Below are positions 2,726-18,929 of a stretch of DNA of 47,489 nucleotides, in pieces. Made by a program: the position numbers and the translations under genes. Source of the DNA: a virus (Duplodnaviria > Caudoviricetes). The first letter of the stretch is position 1. The number at the start of each line of letters is the position of its first letter. The stretch is taken from positions 1 to 47,489 of the IMG/VR virus record IMGVR_UViG_3300035002_000018, one strand, 5' to 3'. Under the pieces are notes generated by a model. The model did not search any database, was not told where the DNA came from, and saw only the letters and a program-made list of their open reading frames with translations.

Positions 2726-2952
2726 TTAAGATAGCAGCAATATGTATTCTACTTCTTTCCTCTTGCGCTGTAACAAAGCAGGAGTGGGTTACCAGTTATA
2801 AGGTTACACATATTCAAAAGGTGAGTACCGGGTTTGAGGTATATGTAAAGATGGGCCGCTACGATATGATGACAATCATGCCAGTGTTGCCCGATACAGT
2901 GAAACCCGGGGCCATGCTTAGTTTTTACCGATTTGTAAAAGTTAAACGATGA
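2722..2952 (+). CDS. Small lipoprotein
   Basis: Lipobox LLSS|C; ATGA overlap. Confidence 0.65.
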   Translation: MIKIAAICILLLSSCAVTKQEWVTSYKVTHIQKVSTGFEVYVKMGRYDMMTIMPVLPDTVKPGAMLSFYRFVKVKR

Positions 2953-3095
2953 AAAAGAATAACTCAATACCTGCGCTGCCTTACATGAAGGCGGTGGCAC
3001 AGTTCGCCCGGTCAAAAGGATTACGCTTTTTCACATGGGCAGAACAGATGAACGCTATTCAACTGTACGAATCAAACGCCGCAAGGCTCAACTGA
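2949..3095 (+). CDS. 48-aa hypothetical protein
   Basis: Read by hand (MKKNNSIPALPYMKAVAQF...); ATGA overlap with upstream gene. Confidence 0.5.
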   Translation: MKKNNSIPALPYMKAVAQFARSKGLRFFTWAEQMNAIQLYESNAARLN

Positions 3096-3096
3096 T

Positions 3097-3201
3097 ATGG
3101 AACTACTTATATCCCTCGGCATCGTGTTCACTATGTGGGTATTTGTTTACCGCTTTGAGAAGTGGGCACAGGCTGATAAACGCAAAAACCAAAAGCCATG
3201 A
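3097..3201 (+). CDS. 34-aa membrane peptide
   Basis: Read by hand (MELLISLGIVFTMWVFVYRF...); ATGA overlap with next gene. Confidence 0.5.
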   Translation: MELLISLGIVFTMWVFVYRFEKWAQADKRKNQKP

Positions 3202-3401
3202 ATGAAATAACCAAAGAAGTGATCATTGTCACCTCCATCGCTGCAACACTGGCTGTAATGCTGTTGATCGGTACGATTGCCTGGATTACATGGGCGCAGA
3301 ACAAAGCAGAGAAGAAAGCAATGGGCCATGATGAATGGAAGGGGTTTGTGATGAGCCGTGAAGCGGATATGAAATTATCAAAAGACGTTTTTGAAGCATA
3401 G
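3198..3401 (+). CDS. Small single-TM protein
   Basis: N-terminal hydrophobic helix; operon packing. Confidence 0.6.
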   Translation: MNEITKEVIIVTSIAATLAVMLLIGTIAWITWAQNKAEKKAMGHDEWKGFVMSREADMKLSKDVFEA

Positions 3402-3417
3402 GCAAGCATAACCAATC

Positions 3418-3583
3418 AGGGCTGGATTTCCATACGGCCCTCTTAAAAAACATTTCTCAGTGGACGGTTAATGGTATGGGACCGGTGAAATCGGTGAAGC
3501 CGGTCCCTCTTTAAAACGAAACATCTTATTCCGGCAGTTGGCGAAATCATGCAGAAATCAGGGAACATCAAAGACTGCCGGAT
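3418..3583 (+). other. Intergenic cluster of three stem-loops
   Basis: AGGGCTG/CGGCCCT (3418-3441), GGGACCGG/CCGGTCCC (3478-3507), TCCGGCAGT/ACTGCCGGA (3530-3582). Confidence 0.6.
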
Positions 3584-3601
3584 TATTAAAATAACAGCAT
3601 C

Positions 3602-3922
3602 ATGATAACTAACGATCAGATAACATTAATGAGAAAGGCGGTAGCCGCCTATGATCTCGGCAACCAAAGCAAAGGAGAGGAAAAGAAAACTTTTGAATCC
3701 TTGCTTAAAAATACGGTTGAAAGTCTAAAACATTCCTTTCAGAAAGAACCGGAACTAACTAATTACGATGCCTGGCAGTTAGAGAAACACGGCAATATAC
3801 TCCCTTCACCTGTTGTATTGCCTTCTGGAGAGATTGAGAACGGTCACGAAGGGATTCAACGTCATGCCGAATGGGTAGAGCAACAGGCTGCGCAACAATT
3901 ACACGAATACGAAAAATACTAA
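3602..3922 (+). CDS. Hypothetical protein
   Basis: ORF in early operon. Confidence 0.7.
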   Translation: MITNDQITLMRKAVAAYDLGNQSKGEEKKTFESLLKNTVESLKHSFQKEPELTNYDAWQLEKHGNILPSPVVLPSGEIENGHEGIQRHAEWVEQQAAQQLHEYEKY

Positions 3923-5879: not shown

Positions 5880-6584
5880 ATGGAAACAAAAGTAACCGTT
5901 GCCCCTACAGGTAACGAAATCATTATTCGTGAAGGTAAAGCTGAGACAATTTATGAGCCACGGAAGGTTCATTTACAGGGCGATATTAATGCTCCGGGGG
6001 CTTACTTTAACAGCAGATGGGAGCCACAGATAAAGCACCTGAAAGATCGTACCCACCTGGTGGTGGATCAGGAAAACCTATCCCTGCAATTGGTGGTGAA
6101 TGAAGCCGATCACCATGCCGTTATCGTAGAAGGTAAAATGGAATTCTTTAAAGAGTTTCTTTCCTTCAATATCAACCGGCAAAAGAACTACACTATTGCA
6201 GAGCTTTATAAAATGCTGCGGTTGAAAAGAGCTTACTTCAAAGATCGCAGTGCCCATGCTGCCATCCTGGATCAGCTTAAAAAGTTTGAGGCTAAAACAG
6301 AAGTTGAATTTAAGAACCTCAACGACTTCAAGGGCTCAACTGCCATGCAAAAGATACAGGTTTGCAAAACGAACCTGTCTTACAACTTCGTTTTGGAAAT
6401 TCCCATTTACAAGGGACTTCCTGCTATGCAATTCCCGGTAGAGATTGAATTTGAGCCCAACGATGGAAGTATTATCTGCTGGCTAATCAGTGAAGATGTA
6501 GCCGAACTGGAAGTAAAGCAGCGTGATGAAGTGATTGCTGCTGAGATTGAAAAATTTAAAGGCATAGCAATTATTAAAAAATGA
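5880..6584 (+). CDS. Hypothetical phage protein (possibly DUF2303/YfdQ-like)
   Basis: C-terminal F.LEIPIYKG....FPVEI pattern typical of this family. Confidence 0.55.
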   Translation: METKVTVAPTGNEIIIREGKAETIYEPRKVHLQGDINAPGAYFNSRWEPQIKHLKDRTHLVVDQENLSLQLVVNEADHHAVIVEGKMEFFKEFLSFNINRQKNYTIAELYKMLRLKRAYFKDRSAHAAILDQLKKFEAKTEVEFKNLNDFKGSTAMQKIQVCKTNLSYNFVLEIPIYKGLPAMQFPVEIEFEPNDGSIICWLISEDVAELEVKQRDEVIAAEIEKFKGIAIIKK

Positions 6585-6883
6585 CCACCACAACGCAGCC
6601 ATACCACCCACAAACAATAGAAGATAAAATATTATCCTTCTTTGACGTAAAGAGAGAGGAAGTATTCATTCCAAACCGGGGCAAGGAGCGTATCGCTACC
6701 ATCCGGCAGATAATAGTCTATTGTTTGTGGAGGTATTCAGGGCTCAAATGCTTTGAAATAGGGGAAAGGGTAAACCGACATTATACAATCATCATTCATA
6801 GCGTCAAAACGATCCACAACCGCTGCTCAGTAGACCAGGAGTTAAGAAACCAAGTTATTGAAATTGAAAAACTGTTTGAATGA
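6581..6883 (+). CDS. DnaA C-terminal-like HTH protein
   Basis: R....ATIRQIIVY......GL...EIG..VNRHYTIIIHSVK matches the Bac_DnaA_C pattern. Confidence 0.8.
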   Translation: MTTTTQPYHPQTIEDKILSFFDVKREEVFIPNRGKERIATIRQIIVYCLWRYSGLKCFEIGERVNRHYTIIIHSVKTIHNRCSVDQELRNQVIEIEKLFE

Positions 6884-8223
6884 ACCAAGATCCTGTATTT
6901 ATCATTGTTGATCTGTTTGGTGGTGGAGGTGGAGATGCTACCGGGTTTTTCAATGCCCGGTTAGATGGCCAGAAAATTGCGAAGGTCATCATTTGTGTGA
7001 ACCATGATGAAGTTGCTTTGAAAACACATGCTCACAATTATCCATTCGTAAAGCATTTCCGGGAGGATATCAGGACGGTTGATCTTTCGCAGTTAAAAAG
7101 CATCGTTGATTATTACAGGTCTTTATATCCGGCTGCTTACCTGGTTATCTGGGGTTCGTTCCCTTGCCCTCACTTTAGTAAGGCATTAGGCAATAAGCCA
7201 AAAGATGAGGGGATCAGGACAATGGCCAGATCACTGTATATGAATTTTGATACAAAGCAACAGAAGCACATTCCGGGTAACAGTTACATACAGGTACTTG
7301 ACCCTGATTATATCTGGATTGAAAATGTGGAAGAGTTTATGAGCTGGGGGCCATTGTGTGATAAAGGCAGGCCAATATCAAGAAAAAACGGGCAGGATTG
7401 GATGGCTTGGAAAACAGATGTCAATTCCTTTGGTTATTATGACGATTGGAGAGAATTGAATAGTGCAGATTTTGGAGCAGATACCAGCCGCAACCGGCTA
7501 TTCGGAATATTTGCCCGGCATGGGCTTCCTATTGCATGGCCAGAGCCTACACATAGCAAGAACCCACAGCAGAACGGAATTTTTGGTAGTTTGAAGCCTT
7601 GGAACCCCGTAAAGAATAGGATTGATTTTAATGATGCGGGGAAAAGCATTATTCACCGAAAAAAGAAGCTCACAGAAAAAACAATACGGGGAATTATAAA
7701 GGGAGTAAAGAAGTTTGCTCTAAATGGTGATGAGTATTTTTTGTATCACTACTATGGCAATAGCTTTTCCACCTCGATAGGTAAGCCTTGCCCTTCTTTC
7801 CGTACAAAATCATCAGTTTATTTAATTCAGGCGTTTATTCATAATCCATCGCATGGTGGTAATTGTACCTCTATCAATTCTCCCTGTCCGGTCATTGTAG
7901 CAAGGCAGGATAAGGCCCCCTTGAGGTTGGTAACCTGTATTAAAAATGAGGCATCAGTAGTAACTGAAGAAAGCGATTCACCTGCTTACCGGGAGTTAAA
8001 GCAGCTGATGATCGATAACAACATACAGGATATTCTTTACCGGCCACTACGGATACAGGAAAAGAAGGTGATACAAGGATTTCCTGCAGATTATCATTTC
8101 TACGGAACGTTAGCCCAACAAAATAAGCAGATAGGTAATAGTGTGGTGCCGTTAATGGCTCAGGTAATTGCTGAAGCGATGGCCCATCGGATAATTGACA
8201 AGCAAAAAAATAAAGTAGCGTAA
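6880..8223 (+). CDS. DNA (cytosine-5) methyltransferase
   Basis: Motifs DLFGGGGG, SFPCPHFS, ENV, TSRNRLF, QGFP, QIGNSV. Confidence 0.92.
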   Translation: MNQDPVFIIVDLFGGGGGDATGFFNARLDGQKIAKVIICVNHDEVALKTHAHNYPFVKHFREDIRTVDLSQLKSIVDYYRSLYPAAYLVIWGSFPCPHFSKALGNKPKDEGIRTMARSLYMNFDTKQQKHIPGNSYIQVLDPDYIWIENVEEFMSWGPLCDKGRPISRKNGQDWMAWKTDVNSFGYYDDWRELNSADFGADTSRNRLFGIFARHGLPIAWPEPTHSKNPQQNGIFGSLKPWNPVKNRIDFNDAGKSIIHRKKKLTEKTIRGIIKGVKKFALNGDEYFLYHYYGNSFSTSIGKPCPSFRTKSSVYLIQAFIHNPSHGGNCTSINSPCPVIVARQDKAPLRLVTCIKNEASVVTEESDSPAYRELKQLMIDNNIQDILYRPLRIQEKKVIQGFPADYHFYGTLAQQNKQIGNSVVPLMAQVIAEAMAHRIIDKQKNKVA

Positions 8224-8230
8224 AGAGAAT

Positions 8231-8467
8231 ATGGCCACTATCCCAAAAAAGAAACCCGAAGCATACAAAGAAGATATGAAGCAAAACTGGCTCATTAATT
8301 CTTATGCAAGACACATGACTGACCAGTTTGGTTTTAAGATCACATACGGGAAAACCTATACTCTTTATTTTAAGGACAACCCGATAACAACTCTGTACTC
8401 CCTGCAAGCCGCTAAATTAATCAGTACCATTATTCTTAACGATACAATTATGAATAAACCATGCTGA
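8231..8467 (+). CDS. Hypothetical protein
   Basis: ORF in operon. Confidence 0.6.
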   Translation: MATIPKKKPEAYKEDMKQNWLINSYARHMTDQFGFKITYGKTYTLYFKDNPITTLYSLQAAKLISTIILNDTIMNKPC

Positions 8468-9087
8468 TCCTAAAAACCGCTAAGCAGATCGCAATCGACA
8501 ACGGCAATAAGCTACTTCCTTGGTGCGAGGTGCTGAATGTGGCCGGGAGCATCCGCAGGGGAAAGCCGGAAGTGGGAGATATCGAGATCATCTGCATACC
8601 AAAGATGATCAGCACCGGGTCGGTGGACTTGTGGGGTAATGACGACCAGAAGCAGATTGTTCACCCGGAATTCACCAAAACGGTGATGAGTCTTGGCCAG
8701 GTGCTTTCCGGCAAACCAGATGGCCGTTATATGAAGATCATGGTAAAGAATCCATATGCTGGCGCCAAAGAAATACAGCTGGACCTGTTCATGCCGCAGC
8801 GCAATGACTATTACCGGCAATATGCCATCCGTACAGGCTCTGCAGACTATGCACAGAAGGTAATAGCCACCGGGTGGAGGAAGAAAGGCTGGGTGGGTTG
8901 CAATGGTGATCTGCGGTTAGAAAGCGAATGCGAAGGCACTAAAGGCCCGGATGGTAAGATGAAATGGAAGTGTATCGTAAATAATCCGACCCTCCCACCT
9001 GCCTGGAGCAGTGAGGAAGACTTTTTCCGGTGGATAGGCGTGGACTATGTGCCACCATCAGCCAGGTATGTTCAGGTGTTAATGTAA
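8461..9087 (+). CDS. Minimal family-X DNA polymerase / nucleotidyltransferase
   Basis: AGSIRRGKPEVGDIE, QLDLF, RTGS, SEEDFF..IG.DYVPP.AR; no lyase or PHP domain. Confidence 0.85.
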   Translation: MLILKTAKQIAIDNGNKLLPWCEVLNVAGSIRRGKPEVGDIEIICIPKMISTGSVDLWGNDDQKQIVHPEFTKTVMSLGQVLSGKPDGRYMKIMVKNPYAGAKEIQLDLFMPQRNDYYRQYAIRTGSADYAQKVIATGWRKKGWVGCNGDLRLESECEGTKGPDGKMKWKCIVNNPTLPPAWSSEEDFFRWIGVDYVPPSARYVQVLM

Positions 9088-9718: not shown

Positions 9719-10630
9719 ATGGCAAGACCTGATAAAAAAGGGATAGACTACTACCCAAAGGATATTGATGCAGACCAGGACGATAAGCTCGGGATGATCA
9801 TTGGTGAATTCGGGGTAAAAGGCGAATTACTGTTCGATAAAGTATGCGGCTGGATATATAAACATGAAGGGTACTATATGAAGTGGGAGGAAGACGTACA
9901 ACTGAGGTTCTTGAGACGCTACGATTACTGTGGTTTCTCCTTGAGTTTCATAAATGAAGTTGTGCCGAGGTTCATTAAGTGGGGTTTGTTTGATAAAACC
10001 GTGTTTGATGAGTTTCAGATTCTCACAAGTAAAAGGATCCAAGAGACATGGATGGAAGCCAGTAGAAAGCGAACCGGCAGAAGATACATTAAAAAAGTAT
10101 GGCTTTTAGAGGTTTCTTCCGGCTTACAGGCGGAAGAAATGGACGAAAAGGCGGAAGAAACACCACAAAGTAAACTAAAGGAAACTAAAGGAAATGAAAT
10201 TAAAGAAAAGAGTAGAGCTAAAGCTCTTGTCGTTGCTGACGCAACTCCGGACAATGCCCAACAGGTTTTGAGAAGTGAATACACAGCGTTGGTAAAGCAG
10301 CTGACGGGCAACGATCTGAAAACGGTGATCACAGGCCTGAAGGAGTTTATCCACGATAAGAAGCCCCTATTCATTGAGCCCTACCAGGAATTCTGGAACC
10401 TGTTCGCAGGTAGTTACGGGCTGGCCAAAGTGGAAGTGCTCAGCGAAAGCCGTAAAAGAAAATTCAAGACCCGCATATCAGAACCCGGGTTTGATTTCCT
10501 AAAGATCCTGGAAAAGATAAAAGCCAGCCCCCTGCTTCGGGGAAAATCGGGCGACTGGAAAGTAAGCTTTGACTGGATACTGGAGAACGATAACAACTAT
10601 GCTAAAATCTTAAACGGGAATTACGATTAA
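9719..10630 (+). CDS. Phage replication initiator (DUF4373 N-terminus)
   Basis: MARP.KKGIDYYP.D; LTSKRIQ; C-terminal SFDWIL..NNY.KIL.GNY; directly upstream of dnaB. Confidence 0.85.
   Translation: MARPDKKGIDYYPKDIDADQDDKLGMIIGEFGVKGELLFDKVCGWIYKHEGYYMKWEEDVQLRFLRRYDYCGFSLSFINEVVPRFIKWGLFDKTVFDEFQILTSKRIQETWMEASRKRTGRRYIKKVWLLEVSSGLQAEEMDEKAEETPQSKLKETKGNEIKEKSRAKALVVADATPDNAQQVLRSEYTALVKQLTGNDLKTVITGLKEFIHDKKPLFIEPYQEFWNLFAGSYGLAKVEVLSESRKRKFKTRISEPGFDFLKILEKIKASPLLRGKSGDWKVSFDWILENDNNYAKILNGNYD
10113..10204 (+). repeat. Iteron-like repeats inside the initiator gene (putative origin)
   Basis: AGGCGGAAGAAA at 10128 and 10149, inverted TTTCTTCCG at 10113, AAACTAAAGG x2 at 10172/10182. Confidence 0.55.
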
Positions 10631-12126
10631 TGCAACCACAGAACCAAAATAAAGACCGGGCCGTAAGGAGGAAACCATCACTGGAGCTTTCCACCATGGT
10701 GTATGGTAAAGTGCCACCACAGGCAAAGGAGCTGGAAGAGGCTATCCTTGGCGGTATGATGCTGGAAAAGGGTGCGGTGGACCGGGCTATCGAATTCATT
10801 AAACCGGAAAGTTTTTACGTTGAAGCCCACCAGCTGATTTTTAAAGCCATACTGGACCTGCACGGTAAAGGATGGCCCATTGATATCCTGACAGTAACCG
10901 AACTGCTGAGGGAGAAAGGTGAACTGGAAATGGTCGGCGGTCCGTACTATGTAACGAAGCTCACCAATGCCGTTGTTTCTTCTGCGAACATCGAGTTTCA
11001 CAGCAAGATCATTGCTCAGTATCACATGAAACGGGAACTGATCAGGATTGGTGGGGAACTGATTGCTGGTGGTTACGAGGATATGACCGATGTGCAGGAC
11101 CTGCTGGACGAGCATGAGAAAAGTATGACGATGATCACCACACAGCGATCTGGTGACAACGTGCAGGGCATTGATGCCGGCCTGGTGAAGATGATCCAGC
11201 GGGTAGAAAGTCTTCGGATGAGTAAGAAGGATATTACCGGTGTTACCAGCGGCTTCCCATCACTTGACCGGATAACATACGGTTGGCAGAATACAGACCT
11301 GATCATCCTGGCAGCAAGACCGGCAGTAGGTAAAACCGCTTTTGCCTTGAACATTGCACGGAATGCAGCCAAAGCAGCAGAGCCGACACCAGTAGCTTTT
11401 TTCTCCCTTGAAATGAGTACAGAACAATTAGTGATGAGGATCGGTGCGGCCGAGAGTGAAATATGGCTTGAGAAAATTGCAAGAGGAAAGATGGAAGAGT
11501 TTGAAATGAAACAGCTGTATACAAAAGGTGTTCAAGCACTGGCCAAGGCCCCCATATTTATTGACGATACTCCCGCCCTGAACATTTTTGAACTCCGGGC
11601 CAAATGCCGCAGGCTGAAAAACAAACACGATATCGGACTGGTGATCATTGACTACCTGCAGTTGATGAGAGGTGTAAATGAATCGAGAGGAAACCGGGAG
11701 CAGGAGATCAGCCAGATATCGAGAAACCTGAAAGGCCTGGCCAAGGAATTGAACATTCCAATTATTGCACTGAGCCAGTTGAGTAGGAAAGTAGAAGACC
11801 GGAAGGGAGATAAAATGCCCCAGCTGAGTGACCTCCGGGAATCCGGCGCCATCGAACAGGATGCAGATATGGTAATGTTCATGTATCGCCCGGAATATTA
11901 TGATCAGAACTCCAATGAAATGGGAGAAAGCACCAAAGGACTCACATTAATAGACATCGCAAAACACAGGAACGGTGTATTGGCCAGGGGAAATGAAGCG
12001 GTGAAGCTGAGAGCCTTATTGCATATCCAAAAATTCGTGGAATGGCAGGATGATATCGTTACCTCATTAAAACCTATTGGTGGGAACTGGAGGCCGGTTG
12101 CACAAGACGACGACGAAGCTTTTTAA
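10630..12126 (+). CDS. dnaB: Replicative DNA helicase
   Basis: AARPAVGKT Walker A, FSLEM, IIDYLQL, SQLSR, LSDLRESGAIEQDAD, AKHRNG. Confidence 0.97.
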   Translation: MQPQNQNKDRAVRRKPSLELSTMVYGKVPPQAKELEEAILGGMMLEKGAVDRAIEFIKPESFYVEAHQLIFKAILDLHGKGWPIDILTVTELLREKGELEMVGGPYYVTKLTNAVVSSANIEFHSKIIAQYHMKRELIRIGGELIAGGYEDMTDVQDLLDEHEKSMTMITTQRSGDNVQGIDAGLVKMIQRVESLRMSKKDITGVTSGFPSLDRITYGWQNTDLIILAARPAVGKTAFALNIARNAAKAAEPTPVAFFSLEMSTEQLVMRIGAAESEIWLEKIARGKMEEFEMKQLYTKGVQALAKAPIFIDDTPALNIFELRAKCRRLKNKHDIGLVIIDYLQLMRGVNESRGNREQEISQISRNLKGLAKELNIPIIALSQLSRKVEDRKGDKMPQLSDLRESGAIEQDADMVMFMYRPEYYDQNSNEMGESTKGLTLIDIAKHRNGVLARGNEAVKLRALLHIQKFVEWQDDIVTSLKPIGGNWRPVAQDDDEAF

Positions 12127-12142
12127 ACCTAAAAATATAACG

Positions 12143-12343
12143 ATGAAAAAAGTAAAAGTGTATATCAAAAAGTCCAGGAACGGGCAGTTCTATTTTACAA
12201 TCCATGCAGCCAATGGTAAAAAGCTTTGCCATTCAGAAACCTATACCCGGAAAGACAGTTGCCGGGAGGGCTTTGTGGTGATGAGGTTGGGCCTCAACTG
12301 TCACGATCTTGAAGTAATTGATACAACAGAAAAAAAGAAATGA
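12143..12343 (+). CDS. DUF1508 (YegP-like) protein
   Basis: GQFYFTIHAANGKKLCHSETYTRKDSC motif. Confidence 0.8.
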   Translation: MKKVKVYIKKSRNGQFYFTIHAANGKKLCHSETYTRKDSCREGFVVMRLGLNCHDLEVIDTTEKKK

Positions 12344-12453
12344 GCTGGTCCGAAAAACATATTAAAGACTTGCAGTCCCGGCGAGTGGGTGAAGAAATTT
12401 CGGGTTTGAGTGCGAATCCCGATGGGGCCGCAAAGAAAGACACAGGAGTTTGA
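12340..12453 (+). pseudogene. Probable 5' stub of a phage gene (MSWSEKHIKDL...) fused to the cassette array
   Basis: ATGA-coupled start; after ~10 codons it runs into cassette leader sequence. Confidence 0.4.
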
Positions 12454-12506
12454 AAAACGGGTGGATTTCGTTCCCTAAGAACCCCAAAAAAGAACAAAGA
12501 GAAAAT

Positions 12507-13061
12507 ATGAACTTATTTGATTTAAATGTACATACGGTAAAAAATGGGCATGAAAAATTTGCTACTGACTTTCAGACAAAGCCTGAAGTTTGTAAGTATA
12601 TGGTATCTCTGTTACCAACAGGGGTAAGGACAGTATTAGAGCCAACACCGGGCATTGGGAATATTGTTGATGCCTTAGCTGGTTATGATGTAACAGCTCC
12701 AAAAGACTTTTTTTTATTGGATAAGAAAAGATTTGATGCAGTTGTAATGAACCCTCCATTTTCTTCTAAGTACGCAAATATGGAAAATGCGCCTGCAGGA
12801 ATAAATAAACACAGGATGAGGTTGGGGTACCATATACTTACTGAGTGTATGGAAATGTCTGATATCATAATTGCTTTAATGCCGTGGTTTACTATTTCTG
12901 ACAGCGATGTAAGGTTGAGATATTTAAAAAAATTTGGTTTAAAATCACTAACAGCCTTGCCAAGAAAAACATTTGAGTATGCAAGGATTCAGACTGTTGT
13001 GATAGAATTACAGAAAGGGTATAAGAGTAAAACGATTTTTGAAGTATATGACTGTCTCTAA
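12507..13061 (+). CDS. Small N6-adenine/N4-cytosine DNA methyltransferase (cassette 1 cargo)
   Basis: FQTKPEV, VLEPTPGIGN (SAM-binding), MNPPF catalytic motif. Confidence 0.85.
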   Translation: MNLFDLNVHTVKNGHEKFATDFQTKPEVCKYMVSLLPTGVRTVLEPTPGIGNIVDALAGYDVTAPKDFFLLDKKRFDAVVMNPPFSSKYANMENAPAGINKHRMRLGYHILTECMEMSDIIIALMPWFTISDSDVRLRYLKKFGLKSLTALPRKTFEYARIQTVVIELQKGYKSKTIFEVYDCL

Positions 13062-13099
13062 TCTCTTTGTTCTTTGGGGTTCTTAGGGATTGCGGTCCC

Positions 13100-13198
13100 A
13101 TCGGTCTCAGGCGTTTGCGCCGGACTGCGATAGATGCGAAGCAGATAGTAAAGCAGGACGGTGCAACTTTTGGGTTTGTCTGGCGCAAAAGCCATGTT
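13100..13198 (+). other. attC-like site 1 (ATC...GTT)
   Basis: Stem GGCGTTTGCGCCGGAC (13110-13125) / GTCTGGCGCAAAAGCC (13178-13193). Confidence 0.75.
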
Positions 13199-13240
13199 CA
13201 CGGCAGTGCCAGCTTTTAATGAAATTAAAAACTATAAGAT

Positions 13241-13504
13241 ATGAACATTAACAGGGAATTGCTAATGGATTTTTTTAAATATTACTGTGACACAACTGAT
13301 GACGAATATCTCGGTAGAGAAGAAGTCATTGTTGATGACTATATCCTATTTAAAAAATATCCATGTGGGATGCCAAACCCAAAAGAGCCTGAGACCGTTC
13401 ACGGCAATGAGGCGGAAAAAGTAGTTTGCAAATGTAATAACCCACATTTATATCAAGACGCTGGGTTTAATTGGAGATGTTCATTATGTGGCAACCCGTT
13501 TTAA
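13241..13504 (+). CDS. Hypothetical protein with C-terminal Zn-ribbon (cassette 2 cargo)
   Basis: CKC..PH...WRCSLCG. Confidence 0.7.
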   Translation: MNINRELLMDFFKYYCDTTDDEYLGREEVIVDDYILFKKYPCGMPNPKEPETVHGNEAEKVVCKCNNPHLYQDAGFNWRCSLCGNPF

Positions 13505-13561
13505 TTGCAAACGGTTTACGCCGTCCGCCGCTTTCCTGGCTGTTGCGGCGGCATTGCCGTG

Positions 13562-13681
13562 AACGGATAGGGCTTGCAGAAGTTGGGGCATTTCTGCAAT
13601 CGGTTCAGCCCATAGGTGCAGCTTGGATTTAGGTGAAGATGAGTTTTAGGGTCAAGCCCCAATTTTTGCAAACCCAATGTT
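13562..13681 (+). other. attC-like site 2 (AAC...GTT)
   Basis: Stem GGGCTTGCAGAAGTTGGGGC (13570-13589) / GCCCCAATTTTTGCAAACCC (13656-13675). Confidence 0.85.
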
Positions 13682-13802
13682 CTATGCAGTGCCATCATGC
13701 TACTTCCTGTCGCTGAATAGAATTAATAAAGCTGGGTGTATTTGTTTTTTGTGCTGCGGAGCTTCTTAAAAATGTATTTTCTAACAATTAAATAAAAATA
13801 AA

Positions 13803-14195
13803 ATGGCAAATGAAACAAGTAAACAAAGGTTAGCAAACCTTATTCAAAGTTATGAGCAGGTAGTTAAATCCGCTCAATCATTGTACGATGATGCTGAATT
13901 AAAAAGTTGGGCTATTGACCGCTCACTTGAAGCACAAGGAAAAATAACAGAAATAAAGAAAAAGCTGAAAGATACTTTTTCAATTGATTATGATGCTGAC
14001 ACTGCAAAAACAAAGGTAATAAAAGAAGGTAGCAGCGTTGAAGTTTTGGTTAATCACATGGACGGCATGAAAGGCTCGACAGCCACAATCAAAAGCTATT
14101 CATTGCCTGCTAATATTTCCGACATTACGATGAAGGACGGCATGAAAATGAATAACCATAAGTGGTTAACCAACGATGAGGTTAAACTAAAGTAA
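13803..14195 (+). CDS. DUF1541 (YdhK-like) domain protein (cassette 3 cargo)
   Basis: GSSVEVLVNHMDGMKGSTATI ... NHKWLTNDEV resembles the DUF1541 repeat. Confidence 0.7.
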   Translation: MANETSKQRLANLIQSYEQVVKSAQSLYDDAELKSWAIDRSLEAQGKITEIKKKLKDTFSIDYDADTAKTKVIKEGSSVEVLVNHMDGMKGSTATIKSYSLPANISDITMKDGMKMNNHKWLTNDEVKLK

Positions 14196-14220
14196 TTATT
14201 CACTTTTAAATTCAAAAAAA

Positions 14221-14292
14221 ATGGGAAAAATGAAACCTGGTATGCCAATGCCAAAACCGAAACCAAAGCCGAAACCAAAGCCGAAAAAGTAA
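14221..14292 (+). CDS. 23-aa Pro-Lys repeat micropeptide MGKMKPGMPMPKPKPKPKPKPKK
   Basis: A-rich leader; varied Pro/Lys codons; followed by a hairpin. Confidence 0.45.
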   Translation: MGKMKPGMPMPKPKPKPKPKPKK

Positions 14293-14298
14293 GGCTTT

Positions 14299-14333
14299 AA
14301 TGTAAGCCGGATGATTATTGTCTGGCTTACATT
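14299..14333 (+). terminator. Stem-loop (possible terminator) inside cassette 3
   Basis: AATGTAAGCCGGA / TCTGGCTTACATT. Confidence 0.5.
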
Positions 14334-14420
14334 TCATTAAAGAACGAAAAGTGTGGCGTTGGCAAAAAAACAAATACATGATATGTCGCTCAATAGAATT
14401 ACAGGTGCGGCATTGCATAG

Positions 14421-14524
14421 AACGGCCCGGAAATTGCCGAAGGCCGCCCCGTTCACTGCGAAGCAGAGAGTAAAGGGGAGGACTGAGGCCGAAACAAACT
14501 GGCGGCTTTTGGCAATTTTATGTA
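14421..14524 (+). other. attC-like site 3 (AAC...GTA)
   Basis: Stem AAATTGCCGAAGGCCGCC (14431-14448) / GGCGGCTTTTGGCAATTT (14501-14518). Confidence 0.8.
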
Positions 14525-14664
14525 GGCCGCCGTCCGGCTGGTGGGTAAGGGTTTGTTGAGTTTTCCGGGCCGTAGGGGCCGCCAAGTAACGCCGGGAGTT
14601 TGAAGAATGAAAACGGAGGAGTTACGTTCCTCGCAACCAAATTGTAAACATTAAAAGAAAAATT

Positions 14665-14976
14665 ATGTGCGAAGAAATCAAAAATGCAACACAAGCATTT
14701 AAACAGCATGACGCCTGTGATGAATGTGGTAAAAGAACAGACGGGTTAATGACCTGCACATATTCACATGATGGCAGCGAAACAAAACTGTGCCCAGATT
14801 GCATTGAGGGTAGCGGTTTTTGTTTACGATGCGGATATTATAGTGCAGGTATGAGCAGTTTTGATTTTTCCGATATGCCCGGATATTGCTCTGAGTGTAG
14901 GGATGAAATAAAGGCAGAAGAAGATGACGACCCTGATTTTGATGCCATATACAATCCGTGGGAATATCCGGATTAA
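14665..14976 (+). CDS. Cys-rich zinc-finger protein with acidic tail (cassette 4 cargo)
   Basis: Four CxxC motifs (CDEC, CPDC, CLRC, CSEC). Confidence 0.75.
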   Translation: MCEEIKNATQAFKQHDACDECGKRTDGLMTCTYSHDGSETKLCPDCIEGSGFCLRCGYYSAGMSSFDFSDMPGYCSECRDEIKAEEDDDPDFDAIYNPWEYPD

Positions 14977-15015
14977 TTTTTCTTGCTTCTATTTGGTTGC
15001 GAGGATGGCGGTCCC

Positions 15016-15328
15016 TACGAAAACGCATTTACGCCGTAGGGCGAATTGAAGATAAAATAAAAACATATTCTTATGCGCAGTCATATTCTATTGTTGAGAG
15101 ATAATTTAAAAGCTCAGTTAGAAAGAGCATATCAGGATGTTGAAAAATACGAATCAACCGAAGACCCTGATGGAGAAGTAGTTTACAACGAAGGTAAAGC
15201 GCAGGGCAAAGCCAATGCTCTTTCTAACGTTATTCAAAAGCTGAATTTTATTTTATCGGCAAATGAGTCCGAAGGCGGAGATAAAGATGGCAAGTAGTGA
15301 ATTGCCCTATGGCGTTAAATGCAGTGTT
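15016..15328 (+). other. attC-like site 4 (TAC...GTT) with a gene in its loop
   Basis: Stem GCATTTACGCCGTAGGGCGAATT (15025-15047) / AATTGCCCTATGGCGTTAAATGC (15300-15322). Confidence 0.75.
15073..15297 (+). CDS. 74-aa hypothetical protein (cassette 5 cargo)
   Basis: A-rich leader; ORF fills the hairpin loop. Confidence 0.65.
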   Translation: MRSHILLLRDNLKAQLERAYQDVEKYESTEDPDGEVVYNEGKAQGKANALSNVIQKLNFILSANESEGGDKDGK

Positions 15329-15473
15329 GTAGGCCGTCCCGACCTATCACGCCATACGCAGCCATCTTTATCAGCAGGGCAAATGCGTTTTCGTTGTCGG
15401 CCATTTTAGAGCCTGTGGACGCATTAGTCCGAGGTACGAGGACGGCGGACACTGCACGGGAGGGATGGCCGAC

Positions 15474-15658
15474 AACGGATTTCGCATTGCCGATGTTTGA
15501 GAGTAGTAAAAAATAAACAATATGAAAGATAATTTGATTCCACTTGTTACAGCTTCATTAATGGAGTGTGTAGTTATATTGATTCTTGTAATTGTTTATT
15601 TTTTACGAGAACGAAAACAGCGGTGAAAAAGACGGTCAAATAGCGGCAAAGCGATGAT
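15474..15658 (+). other. attC-like site 5 (AAC...GAT) with a small gene in its loop
   Basis: Stem GCATTGCCGATGTTTGA (15484-15500) / TCAAATAGCGGCAAAGC (15636-15652). Confidence 0.7.
15522..15626 (+). CDS. 34-aa single-TM peptide MKDNLIPLVTASLMECVVILILVIVYFLRERKQR (cassette 6 cargo)
   Basis: Read by hand; A-rich leader, hydrophobic core, basic C-terminus. Confidence 0.5.
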   Translation: MKDNLIPLVTASLMECVVILILVIVYFLRERKQR

Positions 15659-15825
15659 ATACGAAGTTTGCTGCCGCTGTGAACGACTCCGTCTTTTTCT
15701 TGCGAAATCCGATATACAAAATTTAGGTAGTGGGAGTTGCCCGGTCTAAAAAGTCGAAAATAGATAGACTTCCGGGCAACGAAGCTACCGTGTGTGATGG
15801 TCTTGTGCGGCAGCAAATTTTGTAT

Positions 15826-15866
15826 ATCATATACTTATGCGAACCATAGTTTAAAATCAACAACTT
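15826..15866 (-). other. Candidate attI-like primary insertion site next to the recombinase start
   Basis: Last core ATC (15826-15828) is followed by non-palindromic sequence, then the recombinase ATG 38 bp later. Confidence 0.55.
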
Positions 15867-16703
15867 ATGATTGAGCATTATCAGGCTGAAATAAGAAAGA
15901 AACTGAACCAGCAATGGAGGATGGATCGCAAATCAATAGTGACCATCAAAGGCTATAACTATGCCCTGGACCTGCTGCTGGAGAAACTGCCGGTTTACTT
16001 TGACGAGTACAACACGGACGACCTGGTGGCTTATTGCCTAACTATTCCTGGCATCAACAAACGGGACCTGCAGATCACCATGATAAGGGCGGTGTACCGG
16101 ATCATGCATAATACAAACCTGGACTGGAAGCTATTCCCATTCATCAAACGAAAGAAAAAGATCCAGCCACGGTTCAATACACAGGAGGTACAGGCATTGA
16201 TCAACGCTACGGATAATATCGGACACAAGCTGATAATGCTCACTCAATTTGCAGCCGGCCTCCGGGTGGGTGAAGTGGTGATCTTGAAACGGAAGGATTT
16301 GTTTAAAGAAGAAGGGTTCTTATTCATCGATGGGGAAGGCATCAGTAACGACCGGTTTGCACCATTGCCTGATAATGTGTTCAGGATGCTGGATGAATTC
16401 AGTAAAGACAAAAAGGAAAATGCTTTTATCTGGACGGGTCAATACGGCGGACACCTAAGCACCAGGTCAGTTCAGCAGATCATCAACCAGTGCAAAGCAA
16501 AGGCAGGTATCAGTCACACAGCTAACAGTCATGGTCTCCGCAGAGGCTATGCTACCGAATCGGTTCGTGGCGGAGCTCATATGCTTGCTCTCCGGGATAT
16601 CCTAGGGCACTCAGATATAAGAACCACCCAGATATATACCGGTACCAGCCATGAATTTTTGAAAGAACAATTTAATCCGGCAGCTGAACTGAAAGTTGCA
16701 TGA
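15867..16703 (+). CDS. Tyrosine recombinase (XerD/integron-integrase-like, no IntI-specific insertion)
   Basis: AGLRVGEV, HGLRR, LGHSDIRTTQIY; the usual KG..DR loop reads GEGISNDR. Confidence 0.92.
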   Translation: MIEHYQAEIRKKLNQQWRMDRKSIVTIKGYNYALDLLLEKLPVYFDEYNTDDLVAYCLTIPGINKRDLQITMIRAVYRIMHNTNLDWKLFPFIKRKKKIQPRFNTQEVQALINATDNIGHKLIMLTQFAAGLRVGEVVILKRKDLFKEEGFLFIDGEGISNDRFAPLPDNVFRMLDEFSKDKKENAFIWTGQYGGHLSTRSVQQIINQCKAKAGISHTANSHGLRRGYATESVRGGAHMLALRDILGHSDIRTTQIYTGTSHEFLKEQFNPAAELKVA

Positions 16704-16734
16704 CAGATTAACCTAAACCAATTATCAAATAAAA

Positions 16735-17004
16735 ATGAAAAAGCCACCTACTATCCTACAACAGCAAGAAATCCAAAAAGGGCAATCGTATAAACTCAAA
16801 GAACTTCCTTGTGGTGTGAACTTCCAACTTCCCGAATCACACGATATCTATTCCACAATCACCCATCCCAACCTGGCAAGGACCATGGGCAACTACAACG
16901 CTAAAAGGGACTGCTGGAATGAAACACAGAAGCGAATGGAGCTGATTCAGTACAATCAGCAAGTAATAATATTTTCGGAAAATATTGAAAATTCAGAAAA
17001 TTAG
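16735..17004 (+). CDS. Hypothetical protein
   Basis: ORF with A-rich leader. Confidence 0.6.
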   Translation: MKKPPTILQQQEIQKGQSYKLKELPCGVNFQLPESHDIYSTITHPNLARTMGNYNAKRDCWNETQKRMELIQYNQQVIIFSENIENSEN

Positions 17005-17012
17005 TATATTTG
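16987..17012 (+). promoter_or_regulatory. Putative late promoter upstream of terS
   Basis: GAAAATTCAGAAAAT + TATATTTG (-7 box); same motif upstream of the capsid gene. Confidence 0.6.
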
Positions 17013-17019
17013 GGGTACA

Positions 17020-17529
17020 ATGGTTAGTAAACCAAAAAAGAAAGCAGCCCAAAGAGGGAGGCCCACAAAGTATTTACCTGCGTATTGCGACCAGGCAAGA
17101 AAGCTATGTCTATTAGGCGCAACTGATAAAGATTTAGCCAACTTCTTCGATGTAAATGAAGATACCATTCATCAGTGGAAAAAAGATTATCCGAAATTTT
17201 CCGAGTCCATAAAAGAAGGGAAATCGGTAGCTGATGCAAATATTGCTGATCGCTTATATCAAAGGGCAATGGGATTTGAACACGATAGCGAAGAGATCAA
17301 AGTAATTCCCACAGGCAAAGGCTCTAAGATTCAGAGGGTGCCTATCCGAAAGATTTATCCTCCCGATACCGTTGCTGCCATATTCTGGCTAAAGAACAGG
17401 CAAAAGGAAAAATGGAGAGACAAGATTGAGCAGGATATAACCAGCGGGGGGGAGAAGATTACAGCATTATCAGCTTTGCCACCAGATGATCTGAAGGCAT
17501 TACTGGGAATCAAAAAGAAACTTGGTTAA
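17020..17529 (+). CDS. terS: Terminase small subunit
   Basis: GRPTKY, LCLLGATDKDLANFFDV..DTI..WK, PPDTVAAIFWLKNR...WRDK. Confidence 0.9.
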   Translation: MVSKPKKKAAQRGRPTKYLPAYCDQARKLCLLGATDKDLANFFDVNEDTIHQWKKDYPKFSESIKEGKSVADANIADRLYQRAMGFEHDSEEIKVIPTGKGSKIQRVPIRKIYPPDTVAAIFWLKNRQKEKWRDKIEQDITSGGEKITALSALPPDDLKALLGIKKKLG

Positions 17530-18929
17530 TGGATGCGTTACAGCTTCTTAACATACCGGCAATTGAGATAGAAAAAAAGCTCTTTGAACTTGGCGATTAT
17601 GATTTTATCACCCAAACAGAAAACGGAAAGAATCTAAAGCAAGAACTGGCCTTAAAAGAACTGCACAGAGGATTAGCCAGGGAAGTTTTATACGGCGGTG
17701 CTGCTGGTGGTGCTAAATCATGGACCGGCGCAAGCTGGTTGACTTTTATGTGCGAGTGCTATCCAGGCACCAGGTGGTTTGTTGGCCGGGAATCGTTGAC
17801 CGATCTAAGGAATGCAACCCTGTTAACGTTCACAAAGGTGTTCAAGGCTTATGGGGTCGAGGGAGTGATTTACAAAGACAAGGACCACTACCTGCAATTC
17901 GCAAACGGAAGCCGAATAGATTTCATCGATCTTGCTTTCTACCCGAAGGACAAGGAATATGAACGATTCGGTTCGTTTGAATATACTGGTGGATGGATTG
18001 AGGAAGCAGGGGAGGTGAATTTTGGGGCTTATGATGTGTTGAAAACGAGGATAGGTAGGCATTTGAACGATCATTATGGCATCAGACCAGTGCTGTTCAT
18101 TACTTGTAACCCGAAAAAGAACTGGCTTTATTACGAGTTTTTTACACCCTGGAAGCTGAAAAAACTATCAAAGACAAGATTATTTATTCAGGCTTTTGTA
18201 CAGGACAATCCGGCCATTGAAAGCACATACATCGAACAGCTGAGGTCGCTGAATGATAAGTCAAAGAGGGAAAGGTTATTACTCGGGAATTGGGATTATG
18301 AAGATGATCCCGCAGCTCTTTGCGAATTTGATGCAATCATTGACATGTTCACTAACGATCATGTGAAGCCAGGGGAGAAAAAAATAAGTGCTGATTTGGC
18401 AATGAAGGGTAGGGACCGATTTGTAGCCGGCTGCGCAAGCGGGTTGATAGTTAAAATAGAGATTGATAAAGAGTATTCGCCTGGTAAAGAAATTGAGGCT
18501 GATCTGAAGAACCTGATGATCAAATCAGCTGTACCGAGAAGCAAAACAGTAGTTGACAGTGATGGTTTAGGATCTTATTTGGAAAGCTACTTAACCGGCA
18601 TTTATGAATTTCATGGTGGTGCCAAACCTTTTGATTTAAAAGAGTACGGCAACCTTAAAAGCGAGTGTGGTTATAAGCTGGCAGAGGTAGTTAATAAGCG
18701 ATTGATAAAGGTCATTTGCAGCGAGGATCAAAAGCAAAGGATTATCGAGGAGATGGGGGCGCTGAGGGCCAAAGATGTGGATGCAGATGAGACGAGAAAA
18801 CGGATAATCGCTAAAGATCAAATGAAAGAGTTACTGGGGAGGTCACCGGATTATCTTGACATGCTGATTATGTTGATGGTTTTTGATATCAAGCCTAAAA
18901 GAACTGGTAGTACGGCTGTTGAACGCTAA
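17529..18929 (+). CDS. terL: Terminase large subunit
   Basis: YGGAAGGAKS Walker A, WIEEAGE Walker B, TCNP, ADLA..G.D, RSPDYLD. Confidence 0.93.
   Translation: MDALQLLNIPAIEIEKKLFELGDYDFITQTENGKNLKQELALKELHRGLAREVLYGGAAGGAKSWTGASWLTFMCECYPGTRWFVGRESLTDLRNATLLTFTKVFKAYGVEGVIYKDKDHYLQFANGSRIDFIDLAFYPKDKEYERFGSFEYTGGWIEEAGEVNFGAYDVLKTRIGRHLNDHYGIRPVLFITCNPKKNWLYYEFFTPWKLKKLSKTRLFIQAFVQDNPAIESTYIEQLRSLNDKSKRERLLLGNWDYEDDPAALCEFDAIIDMFTNDHVKPGEKKISADLAMKGRDRFVAGCASGLIVKIEIDKEYSPGKEIEADLKNLMIKSAVPRSKTVVDSDGLGSYLESYLTGIYEFHGGAKPFDLKEYGNLKSECGYKLAEVVNKRLIKVICSEDQKQRIIEEMGALRAKDVDADETRKRIIAKDQMKELLGRSPDYLDMLIMLMVFDIKPKRTGSTAVER

What the first reader, a model, noticed from the sequence alone, without database searches (positions are those of the whole stretch)
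12367..16703. Phage-borne integron-like cassette array beside a non-IntI tyrosine recombinase
Seen: six modules lie between the replication genes and terS. Each cassette body opens with GWW and closes with its own reverse complement: GATggggccgcaa 12421 / ttgcggtcccATC 13102; GTTcacggcagtgcc 13196 / ggcattgccgtgAAC 13564; GTTctatgcagtgcc 13679 / ggcattgcatagAAC 14423; GTAggccgccgtcc 14522 / ggatggcggtcccTAC 15018; GTTgtaggccgtccc 15326 / gggatggccgacAAC 15476; GATatacgaagtttgctgccgc 15656 / gcggcagcaaattttgtatATC 15828. Between the bodies are five sequence-diverse hairpins of one shape: WWC, a 5-7 nt spacer starting with G, an arm, a loop, the complementary arm, 2-3 nt ending in T, then GWW. 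Established: self-complementary cassette ends and structure-conserved attC sites are the integron signature. Inference: the adjacent 278-aa recombinase shuffles these cassettes. Unusual points are the location inside a phage, the relaxed cores (AAC/TAC/ATC), and an enzyme lacking the IntI I2 insertion, so standard integron finders may miss it.
Basis: partly seen in the sequence, partly recalled or inferred. Interest (0 to 1): 0.93.

Follow-up and report, generated by a model that had tools for sequence, protein, structure and literature searches.

The report
Phage cassettes carrying their own splint
This prophage carries a row of small DNA cassettes that relatives swap at exactly one base, much as integrons do, and four of its five whole cassettes hold an inner mirror copy of the seam they would form as a circle, which likely frees them from the fixed integron recognition code.

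Summary
The array is real. All six end pairs are at the stated places. Relatives gain, lose and reorder cassettes exactly at NN|C: one contig joins 15017 to 15828, lacking two cassettes; another holds cassette 13562-14423 between new neighbours. Homology to two recombinase loci starts at or just before C15828, an attI-like site. The unit is left hairpin plus body. It belongs to a Bacteroidota Xer-type integron-like system, already noted in this scan but not found in print.

New here: 4 of 5 whole cassettes carry an inner 22-23/24-base reverse copy of their own circle junction (shuffled maximum 15-17). In 60 curated cassettes, 8 of 9 with non-AAC cores have it, against 2 of 51 with AAC cores. 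It is predicted to out-fold the attC-type hairpin by 12-22 kcal/mol.

It may be slow, or rely on the host enzyme. Works like an integron; not one. No activity shown.

The parts
12372..13101 (+). Cassette 1, left end lost; N6-type DNA methyltransferase ORF 12450-13061; inner junction copy with G at 12421; AT|C end
   Evidence: (PF02384); intact family start in X9 record 21
13102..13563 (+). Cassette 2 (AA core): hairpin 13102-13195, attC partner G13196, 87-aa ORF 13241-13504
   Evidence: X10 record 1 spans 13102-13565 with the inner parts diverged
13386..13409 (+). Inner reverse copy of cassette 2 circle junction (23/24), inside the ORF
   Evidence: 13375-13429 kept with 2 differences while both flanks diverge in X10; same pattern in X4
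13564..14422 (+). Cassette 3 (AA core, no inner copy, 13/24): hairpin, G13679, 130-aa DUF1541 ORF 13803-14195
   Evidence: identical cassette in another context in X2 record 10; same gene in AA cassettes of other phages
14423..15017 (+). Cassette 4 (TA core): hairpin, G14522, 103-aa Cys-rich ORF 14665-14976
   Evidence: begins at 14423 after 1059 foreign bases in X9 record 21; ends at 15017 joined to 15828 in X9 record 26
14561..14584 (+). Inner junction copy of cassette 4 (22/24)
15018..15475 (+). Cassette 5 (AA core): 74-aa ORF 15073-15297 inside the hairpin loop, G15326, short non-coding body
15382..15405 (+). Inner junction copy of cassette 5 (23/24)
15476..15827 (+). Cassette 6 (AT core): 34-codon ORF in the loop, G15656, non-coding body
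   Evidence: relatives with the same boundaries in chromosome locus L149 and phage L155
15700..15723 (+). Inner junction copy of cassette 6 (23/24)
15828..15850 (+). attI-like docking site; fixed C of NN|C, 39 nt before the recombinase start
   Evidence: same sequence after AT, TA and AA cassette ends in window, L002, L003; contigs of X4 and X9 also break at 15828
15867..16703 (+). 278-aa XerA-like tyrosine recombinase: R133, H222, R225, H248, Y257 kept; beta2-beta3 lysine replaced by G158; no IntI insertion
10630..12126 (+). DnaB helicase (left context)
17020..18929 (+). Small and large terminase (right context)

Best explanation
This is an array of mobile cassettes that relatives gain, lose and reorder exactly at NN|C sites beside a fixed docking site, likely by integron-style tyrosine recombination on folded single strands, and four whole cassettes carry an inner copy of their circle seam that likely acts as a splint for both ends. 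SHOWN: precise exchange at NN|C; unit = left hairpin + body; docking site tied to the recombinase gene; inner copies; their enrichment in non-AAC cassettes; loss of the catalytic lysine. INFERRED: (a) the window + strand is the folded strand, because mismatches between paired ends are mostly G.T-compatible on it and host arrays have the same geometry; (b) a circle inserts at the docking site by a cut between NN and C (about 0.8); (c) in the array the copy pairs with both cassette ends at once and sets the two cut points side by side, so excision no longer needs the neighbour's core to match and the core can drift to AT, TA or AG (about 0.4); (d) the phage protein binds the site and is a slowed enzyme or works with the host's lysine-intact relative (about 0.75 together). 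Genes lie on the strand the phage transcribes, opposite to chromosomal cassettes, so they would be read as part of the replication-to-packaging transcript.
For: Joint 15017->15828 skipping 810 nt, 0 differences over 113 nt of cassette 4 (X9 record 26). Cassette 3 at 13562-14423, 0 substitutions, new flanks. Cassettes 2 and 4 with matching limits in X9 and X10. Cassette 6 relatives in L149 and L155. Homology break at C15828 in L002 and from 15825 in L003, with different upstream cassettes. Same geometry and attI-like ends beside lysine-intact recombinases in L070, L077, L084, L165. Copies 21-23/24 in 10 of 60 cassettes, 13-18 in the other 50; 8 of 9 non-AA against 2 of 51 AA (Fisher p 1.5e-7; 2e-4 with related cassettes collapsed). 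The opposite framing (body + right hairpin) gives only 13-15/24. Copy kept while the ORF around it diverges. In array context the right end pairs with the copy in 8 of 8, and both ends in 6 of 8. Recombinase under purifying selection, dN 0.067 and dS 0.611 against L002.
Against: The lysine loss argues against full activity: no Cre K201 substitution recombined in vitro, and only weak in vivo activity remained (PMC2943603). In the circle the copy duplex is predicted to bury the attC-type fold (pair probability 0.00 against 0.98-1.00), which would hinder insertion unless protein or folding kinetics override it. One TA-core cassette has no copy (L179) and two AA-core cassettes have one. In 2 of 8 the left end did not pair with the copy (0.01, 0.03). 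The 60 cassettes were hand-curated, and L149 and L155 were fetched for likeness to cassette 6. Copy cassettes also sit in arrays where no lysine-less enzyme was seen in the DNA held (L188 is beside a standard-type recombinase gene).
Confidence: 0.6

Rival explanations
1. Same array, but the inner copy is a lock. It buries the recombinogenic hairpin so that the cassette is rarely excised, making these selfish or stabilised cassettes that clog docking sites.
For: The copy fold beats the attC fold by 12-22 kcal/mol in 8 of 8. Copy cassettes are often nearly empty and sit next to attI-like sites (window, L002, L149, L188, X9 record 26). Fold competition tunes attC recombination in classical integrons (PMC6393395, abstract).
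Against: Copy cassettes are mobile: phage and chromosome for cassette 6, two copies 3 bases apart in L188, clean absence in X9. A lock need not match the circle seam on both sides.
Confidence: 0.2
2. The copy is a relic or template of cassette birth or end repair: cassette ends were copied from an inner sequence by fold-back synthesis.
For: In cassette 2 the copy lies in coding sequence. The attC partner looks like a degraded repeat of the copy. The methyltransferase gene occurs mostly bare, and once in a different cassette frame.
Against: The copy stays conserved while the ORF around it diverges. Its distance from the attC partner is 50-56 nt in 6 of 8. The displaced arm has its own partner in the alternative fold. 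These fit ongoing selection better than a relic.
Confidence: 0.12
3. The adjacent protein is a non-cutting decoy or regulator, and the host recombinase alone moves the cassettes; the array is in effect an enzyme-less cluster with a docking site.
For: Catalytic lysine and the second loop lysine absent in 12 of 12. 53 of 121 family genomes carry the array-linked recombinase type. Of four other phage or prophage-like arrays checked, only L165 showed a recombinase in the DNA held.
Against: R, H, R, H and Y are invariant down to 59% identity, and the docking site travels with the gene.
Confidence: 0.25
4. Ordinary phage mosaicism with chance hairpins or terminators.
For: The region between replication and terminase genes is often variable in phages (general knowledge).
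Against: 0 of 100 shuffles give a cassette. Single-base-exact breaks in several studies' contigs. Terminator-like and promoter-like counts are at chance level.
Confidence: 0.02

Closest known systems
Classical integrons (IntI, attI, attC cassettes)
   Same: Docking site beside a tyrosine recombinase; cassettes with self-complementary ends; cut at the G|NN position; sequence-diverse folded sites; model resembles VchIntIA 2A3V (TM 0.75).
   Different: No IntI insertion; no catalytic lysine; core AAC/TAC/ATC/AGC; spacers of 5-7 and 2-4 nt; genes on the folded strand and sometimes inside the loop; inner junction copy.
Phage CALINs and phage-borne integrons (Qi et al. 2023, PMC9892861; read parts 1-3 of 7)
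   Same: Cassette clusters in phages, including Polaribacter phage P12002L with methyltransferase genes.
   Different: Those were found with IntI/attC models, and the tested sites recombined with IntI1 at G|TTRRRY. Here there is a docking site, a non-IntI enzyme and variable cores.
Bacteroidota Xer-type (Phage_int_SAM_4-like) integron-like arrays (unpublished scan notes; seen here in L070, L077, L084, L157, L161, L163, L165)
   Same: Same site geometry, attI-like end, 89-residue Arg-to-His spacing; cassette 3 and cassette 6 types are shared.
   Different: Those are nearly all AAC-core without copies, and the four enzymes checked keep the lysine. This clade is one isolated 50% cluster.
XerA/XerC/XerD
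   Same: Best sequence and fold matches.
   Different: Scores below the curated cut-offs; linked to single-strand-type cassette sites, not to dif.
Guide or splint pairing in IS200/IS605 ends and IS110 bridge RNAs (recalled, not from a call)
   Same: Base pairing, not protein, would line up the joint.
   Different: Different enzymes; here the guide would be DNA inside the cassette, and its role is untested.

Membership tests
Integron | Tyrosine recombinase (PF00589) | tested here: met
   E 9e-24; fold matches XerA and IntI
Integron | IntI-specific additional domain (definition as quoted in PMC9668308) | tested here: not met
   TIGR02249 64.7 bits against cut-off 265, best stretch 196-259; Arg-to-His spacing 89, as in Xer-type relatives; 319-325 alignment columns against 2A3V for 278 residues
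Integron | attI site next to the integrase with insertion at G|TT | tested here: met
   Conserved site with break at C15828 and variable neighbours; insertion point G|NN on the minus strand
Integron | attC with conserved AAC/GTT core | tested here: not met
   Ends in the window: AT, AA, AA, TA, AA, AT; AG in L002
Integron | attC folding as an imperfect single-strand hairpin with unpaired spacer and extrahelical bases | tested here: inconclusive
   Such a fold is predicted for copy-less circles (P 0.98-0.99) but is out-competed in copy cassettes; no IntegronFinder model was available
Integron | Exchangeable cassettes | tested here: met
Integron | Pc promoter driving cassettes away from intI | tested here: inconclusive
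   Genes point toward the recombinase; promoter scans at chance level
Integron | Demonstrated integrase-dependent recombination | not testable with these tools
   Needs bench assay
Active tyrosine recombinase | R-K-H-R-H/W-Y catalytic set | tested here: not met
   5 of 6 kept; K replaced by G in 12 of 12, kept in 148 of 149 nearest relatives
Bacteroidota Xer-type cassette system | NNC-spacer-arm-loop-arm-spacer-GNN sites and attI-like end beside a Xer-type recombinase | tested here: met
   One detector calls window, host and phage arrays; shared cassette families
Bacteroidota Xer-type cassette system | Phage_int_SAM_4 (PF13495) N-terminal domain | tested here: not met
   No PF13495 hit for the query, though most of its top distant homologs have it

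The most novel reading that the evidence does not exclude
A self-splinting class of gene cassette: each carries a DNA guide that base-pairs across its own two ends, so the joint is specified by the cassette and not by a fixed core sequence. A phage recombinase that has shed the general-acid lysine has specialised on these pre-aligned substrates. The same copy may be the template from which new cassette ends are made, which would open the unsolved question of how cassettes arise.
Probability: 0.25. Interest if true: 0.95.

Novelty: new variant of a known kind. Interest (0 to 1): 0.8.

Why it matters
It gives base-exact comparative evidence that a non-IntI cassette system exchanges genes among Bacteroidota phages and chromosomes, in a phylum where integron finders report almost none (PMC9024848 passage). 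The inner junction copy is a new, directly testable design element that tracks with escape from the AAC/GTT rule. It bears on how structure-specific sites are recognised and, possibly, on how cassettes are made. A conserved recombinase clade missing only the catalytic lysine is a sharp enzymology question.

Tried and rejected
Rfam: 0 matches in 12100-17100. Recombinase relatives: none in viral contigs or genome contigs; 1 of 401 family genomes hit A1 at 1e-45, and that was a 385-aa distant type. Docking-site pattern: 0 in viral contigs. Family-A end pattern: 30 loci; the parts of the output I could see (it was cut) were GC-rich chance hits, and I did not use them. Copy pattern: 3 viral loci, one a truncated cassette 4 relative and two chance, plus 1 of 391 genomes, chance. 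24 methyltransferase loci: no convincing junction copy (3 calls, null 0-1). Cassette 3 gene: 0 of 401 genomes. The first AlphaFold model was too poor to use (pLDDT 59); the second (pLDDT 91.6) returns no coordinates, so a substitute lysine could not be checked. The host genome of L001 was not held, so a host enzyme in this lysogen is untested. Small-share runs that I did not lay (16 of 24) are not used. Rejected: body + right hairpin as the unit; terminators or promoters as the explanation.
Full report
Context. The window is a temperate phage: repressor, DnaB, terminases and portal are present. An identical 16.8-kb stretch lies in a 1.72-Mb contig (L001) and in a 144-kb contig of the possible source run X1, so it is a prophage. 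A Chitinophagaceae-like host is inferred: a cassette 6 relative lies in G361, drawn from the family of G001 (= L069, titled Chitinophagaceae). The array lies between DnaB (ends 12126) and terS (17020).

Observation. A detector that needs only G...C pairing plus the hairpin geometry calls the five chained cassettes and three overlapping alternatives within the array, nothing elsewhere in 47 kb, and nothing in 100 shuffles. Two hairpin loops hold ORFs. Module 1 has lost its left end.

The crossover and the unit. BLAST homology of L002 (recombinase 88% identical) begins at C15828, and that of L003 (69%) at 15825. The three loci share the sequence from that C onward, after AT, TA and AA. L002 has two whole, different cassettes upstream, one with a GCT/AGC core. 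Of 24 listed runs I laid 8; one, X1, may be the source and is not counted. X9 record 26 joins 15017 to 15828, lacking cassettes 5 and 6 exactly. X9 record 21 resumes at 14423 after 1059 foreign bases. X2 record 10 is cassette 3 (13562-14423, 0 substitutions, one 12-nt repeat deletion) between other neighbours. X10 records 1 and 6 span 13102-13565 and 14413-15019. X4 record 15 starts at 15828. The output tables were cut, so further pieces were not seen. Cassette 6 relatives have the same limits in a chromosome (L149) and mid-array in another phage (L155). So the unit is left hairpin + body, cut at NN|C, which is G|NN on the minus strand, the integron position. This is comparative evidence of exchange, not observed recombination.

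Relation to host arrays. Chromosomal loci L070, L077 and L084 have the same geometry, AAC/GTT cores and an attI-like end next to a recombinase with the lysine intact, at its 5' or 3' side. Their genes lie on the strand opposite to that used here. Phage L165 has such an array with a lysine-intact 278-aa enzyme; L161 and L163 have arrays with no recombinase in the DNA held. Earlier scan notes describe this system (AI notes, three marked as partly fallen). Four paper searches aimed at it listed no paper describing it; I judged this from listings and a few passages. Qi et al. (PMC9892861; parts 1-3 of 7 read, supplements not seen) report 17 phage CALINs, including a Polaribacter phage. PMC9024848 (passages) reports one complete Bacteroidetes integron. 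PMC8618304 and PMC9668308 were seen as passages.

The inner junction copy. Joining a cassette's last 12 and first 12 bases gives its circle seam. The reverse complement occurs inside cassettes 2, 4, 5 and 6 at 23, 22, 23 and 23 of 24, against shuffled maxima of 15-17; cassette 3 gives 13. Both L002 cassettes have it (21 and 22; one search used a start one base off for the first). An unrelated-looking 274-bp AT-core cassette with a copy occurs twice in chromosomal array L188. Of 60 cassettes, curated by hand (offset and unchained calls dropped; four L188 calls replaced by the real boundaries), 10 score 21-23 and 50 score 13-18. Non-AA cores: 8 of 9 with a copy. AA cores: 2 of 51 (p 1.5e-7; 2e-4 when related cassettes are collapsed to four families). 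The sample is not random. In X10 and X4 the copy region of cassette 2 aligns while the coding sequence on both sides does not. The copy lies 50-56 nt after the attC partner in 6 of 8. With DNA parameters the copy duplex beats the forced attC-type fold by 12.1-21.6 kcal/mol in 8 of 8, and in most the displaced arm finds another partner. In array context the right end pairs with the copy in 8 of 8 and the left end in 6 of 8. A perfect 23-bp match will win any equilibrium fold, so this shows competition, not function. Four searches of scan notes found no mention. My paper searches on cassette creation and alternative attC folds showed none in their listings, but no search named this feature directly.

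The enzyme. It is XerA-like, below all curated cut-offs, with no IntI insertion. A confident model (pLDDT 91.6) matches XerA and IntI 2A3V. Its clade is one isolated 50% cluster (526 bits against 162 next). R133, H222, R225, H248 and Y257 are invariant, but the loop reads DGEGI[SNG]NDR: the catalytic lysine is glycine in 12 of 12 against lysine in 148 of 149 nearest relatives, and the second loop lysine is also gone. In Cre this lysine is the general acid; substitutions gave no in vitro and only weak in vivo recombination (PMC2943603 passages). Yet dN/dS against L002 is about 0.11, and the docking site stays with the gene in otherwise different phages. I put slowed but active at about 0.45, partner of a host enzyme at 0.3, and decoy or regulator at 0.25. 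A related array-linked recombinase type is present in 53 of 121 family genomes; I checked the lysine directly only in L070, L077, L084 and L165 and in the alignments.

Mechanism. Most likely a cassette circle folds its + strand and is inserted at the docking site by a cut at NN|C (inferred from integron chemistry, general knowledge). After insertion a cassette with an unusual core faces a mismatched neighbour, which should hinder classical excision; four of the five internal sites here are mismatched in this way. The inner copy pairs with both of the cassette's own ends and would align the two cut points whatever the neighbour, which explains why core drift goes with the copy. The main difficulty is that the same duplex hides the attC-type fold in the circle; the lock and relic readings remain open.

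Verdict. A real, mobile cassette array that works like an integron but fails the IntI and core tests. It is a new variant because of the self-matching copies, the free core and the lysine-less enzyme. Interest 0.8.

Noticed in passing
L188:15567-15841 and 16670-16944 (minus strand; G064:C3): Two copies, 3 bases apart, of a 274-bp apparently non-coding AT-core cassette with a junction copy in one chromosomal array, one at the attI-like end.
   Followed up: partly
L034 around 6001-6597; L035-L057: Relatives of the cassette 1 methyltransferase are mostly bare phage genes; of 21 flanks read by eye only L034 had GTT...AAC cassette ends. This hints that cassettes are made from ordinary phage genes.
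   Followed up: partly
window 14221-14292: Tiny ORF with a Lys-Pro repeat inside cassette 3; a 12-nt unit is missing in contigs of X2, X11 and X13.
   Followed up: no
window 15073-15297; L002:1113-1316: Genes carried inside the hairpin loop, with a nearly empty body.
   Followed up: partly
L002:1490-2365 and 2906-3850: The docking site and recombinase sit in a phage with a different terminase and a separate phage-type integrase on the other strand, so the module moves between phages.
   Followed up: partly
L179:16028-16908 (minus strand): Chromosomal TA-core cassette without a junction copy, beside an attI-like site at the 3' end of the host recombinase gene.
   Followed up: partly
L149:1262 (minus strand); run X2 record 10 right flank: AT-rich attI-like ends with no recombinase gene next to them in the DNA seen.
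   Followed up: no
L157:763-8460: At least eight chained AAC-core cassettes on a short contig of G100, with phage-like genes on the folded strand in the part read.
   Followed up: partly
window 6880-8223 and 8461-9087: A C5 DNA methyltransferase and a DNA polymerase beta-like gene (weak Pfam hits) upstream of the replication genes.
   Followed up: no
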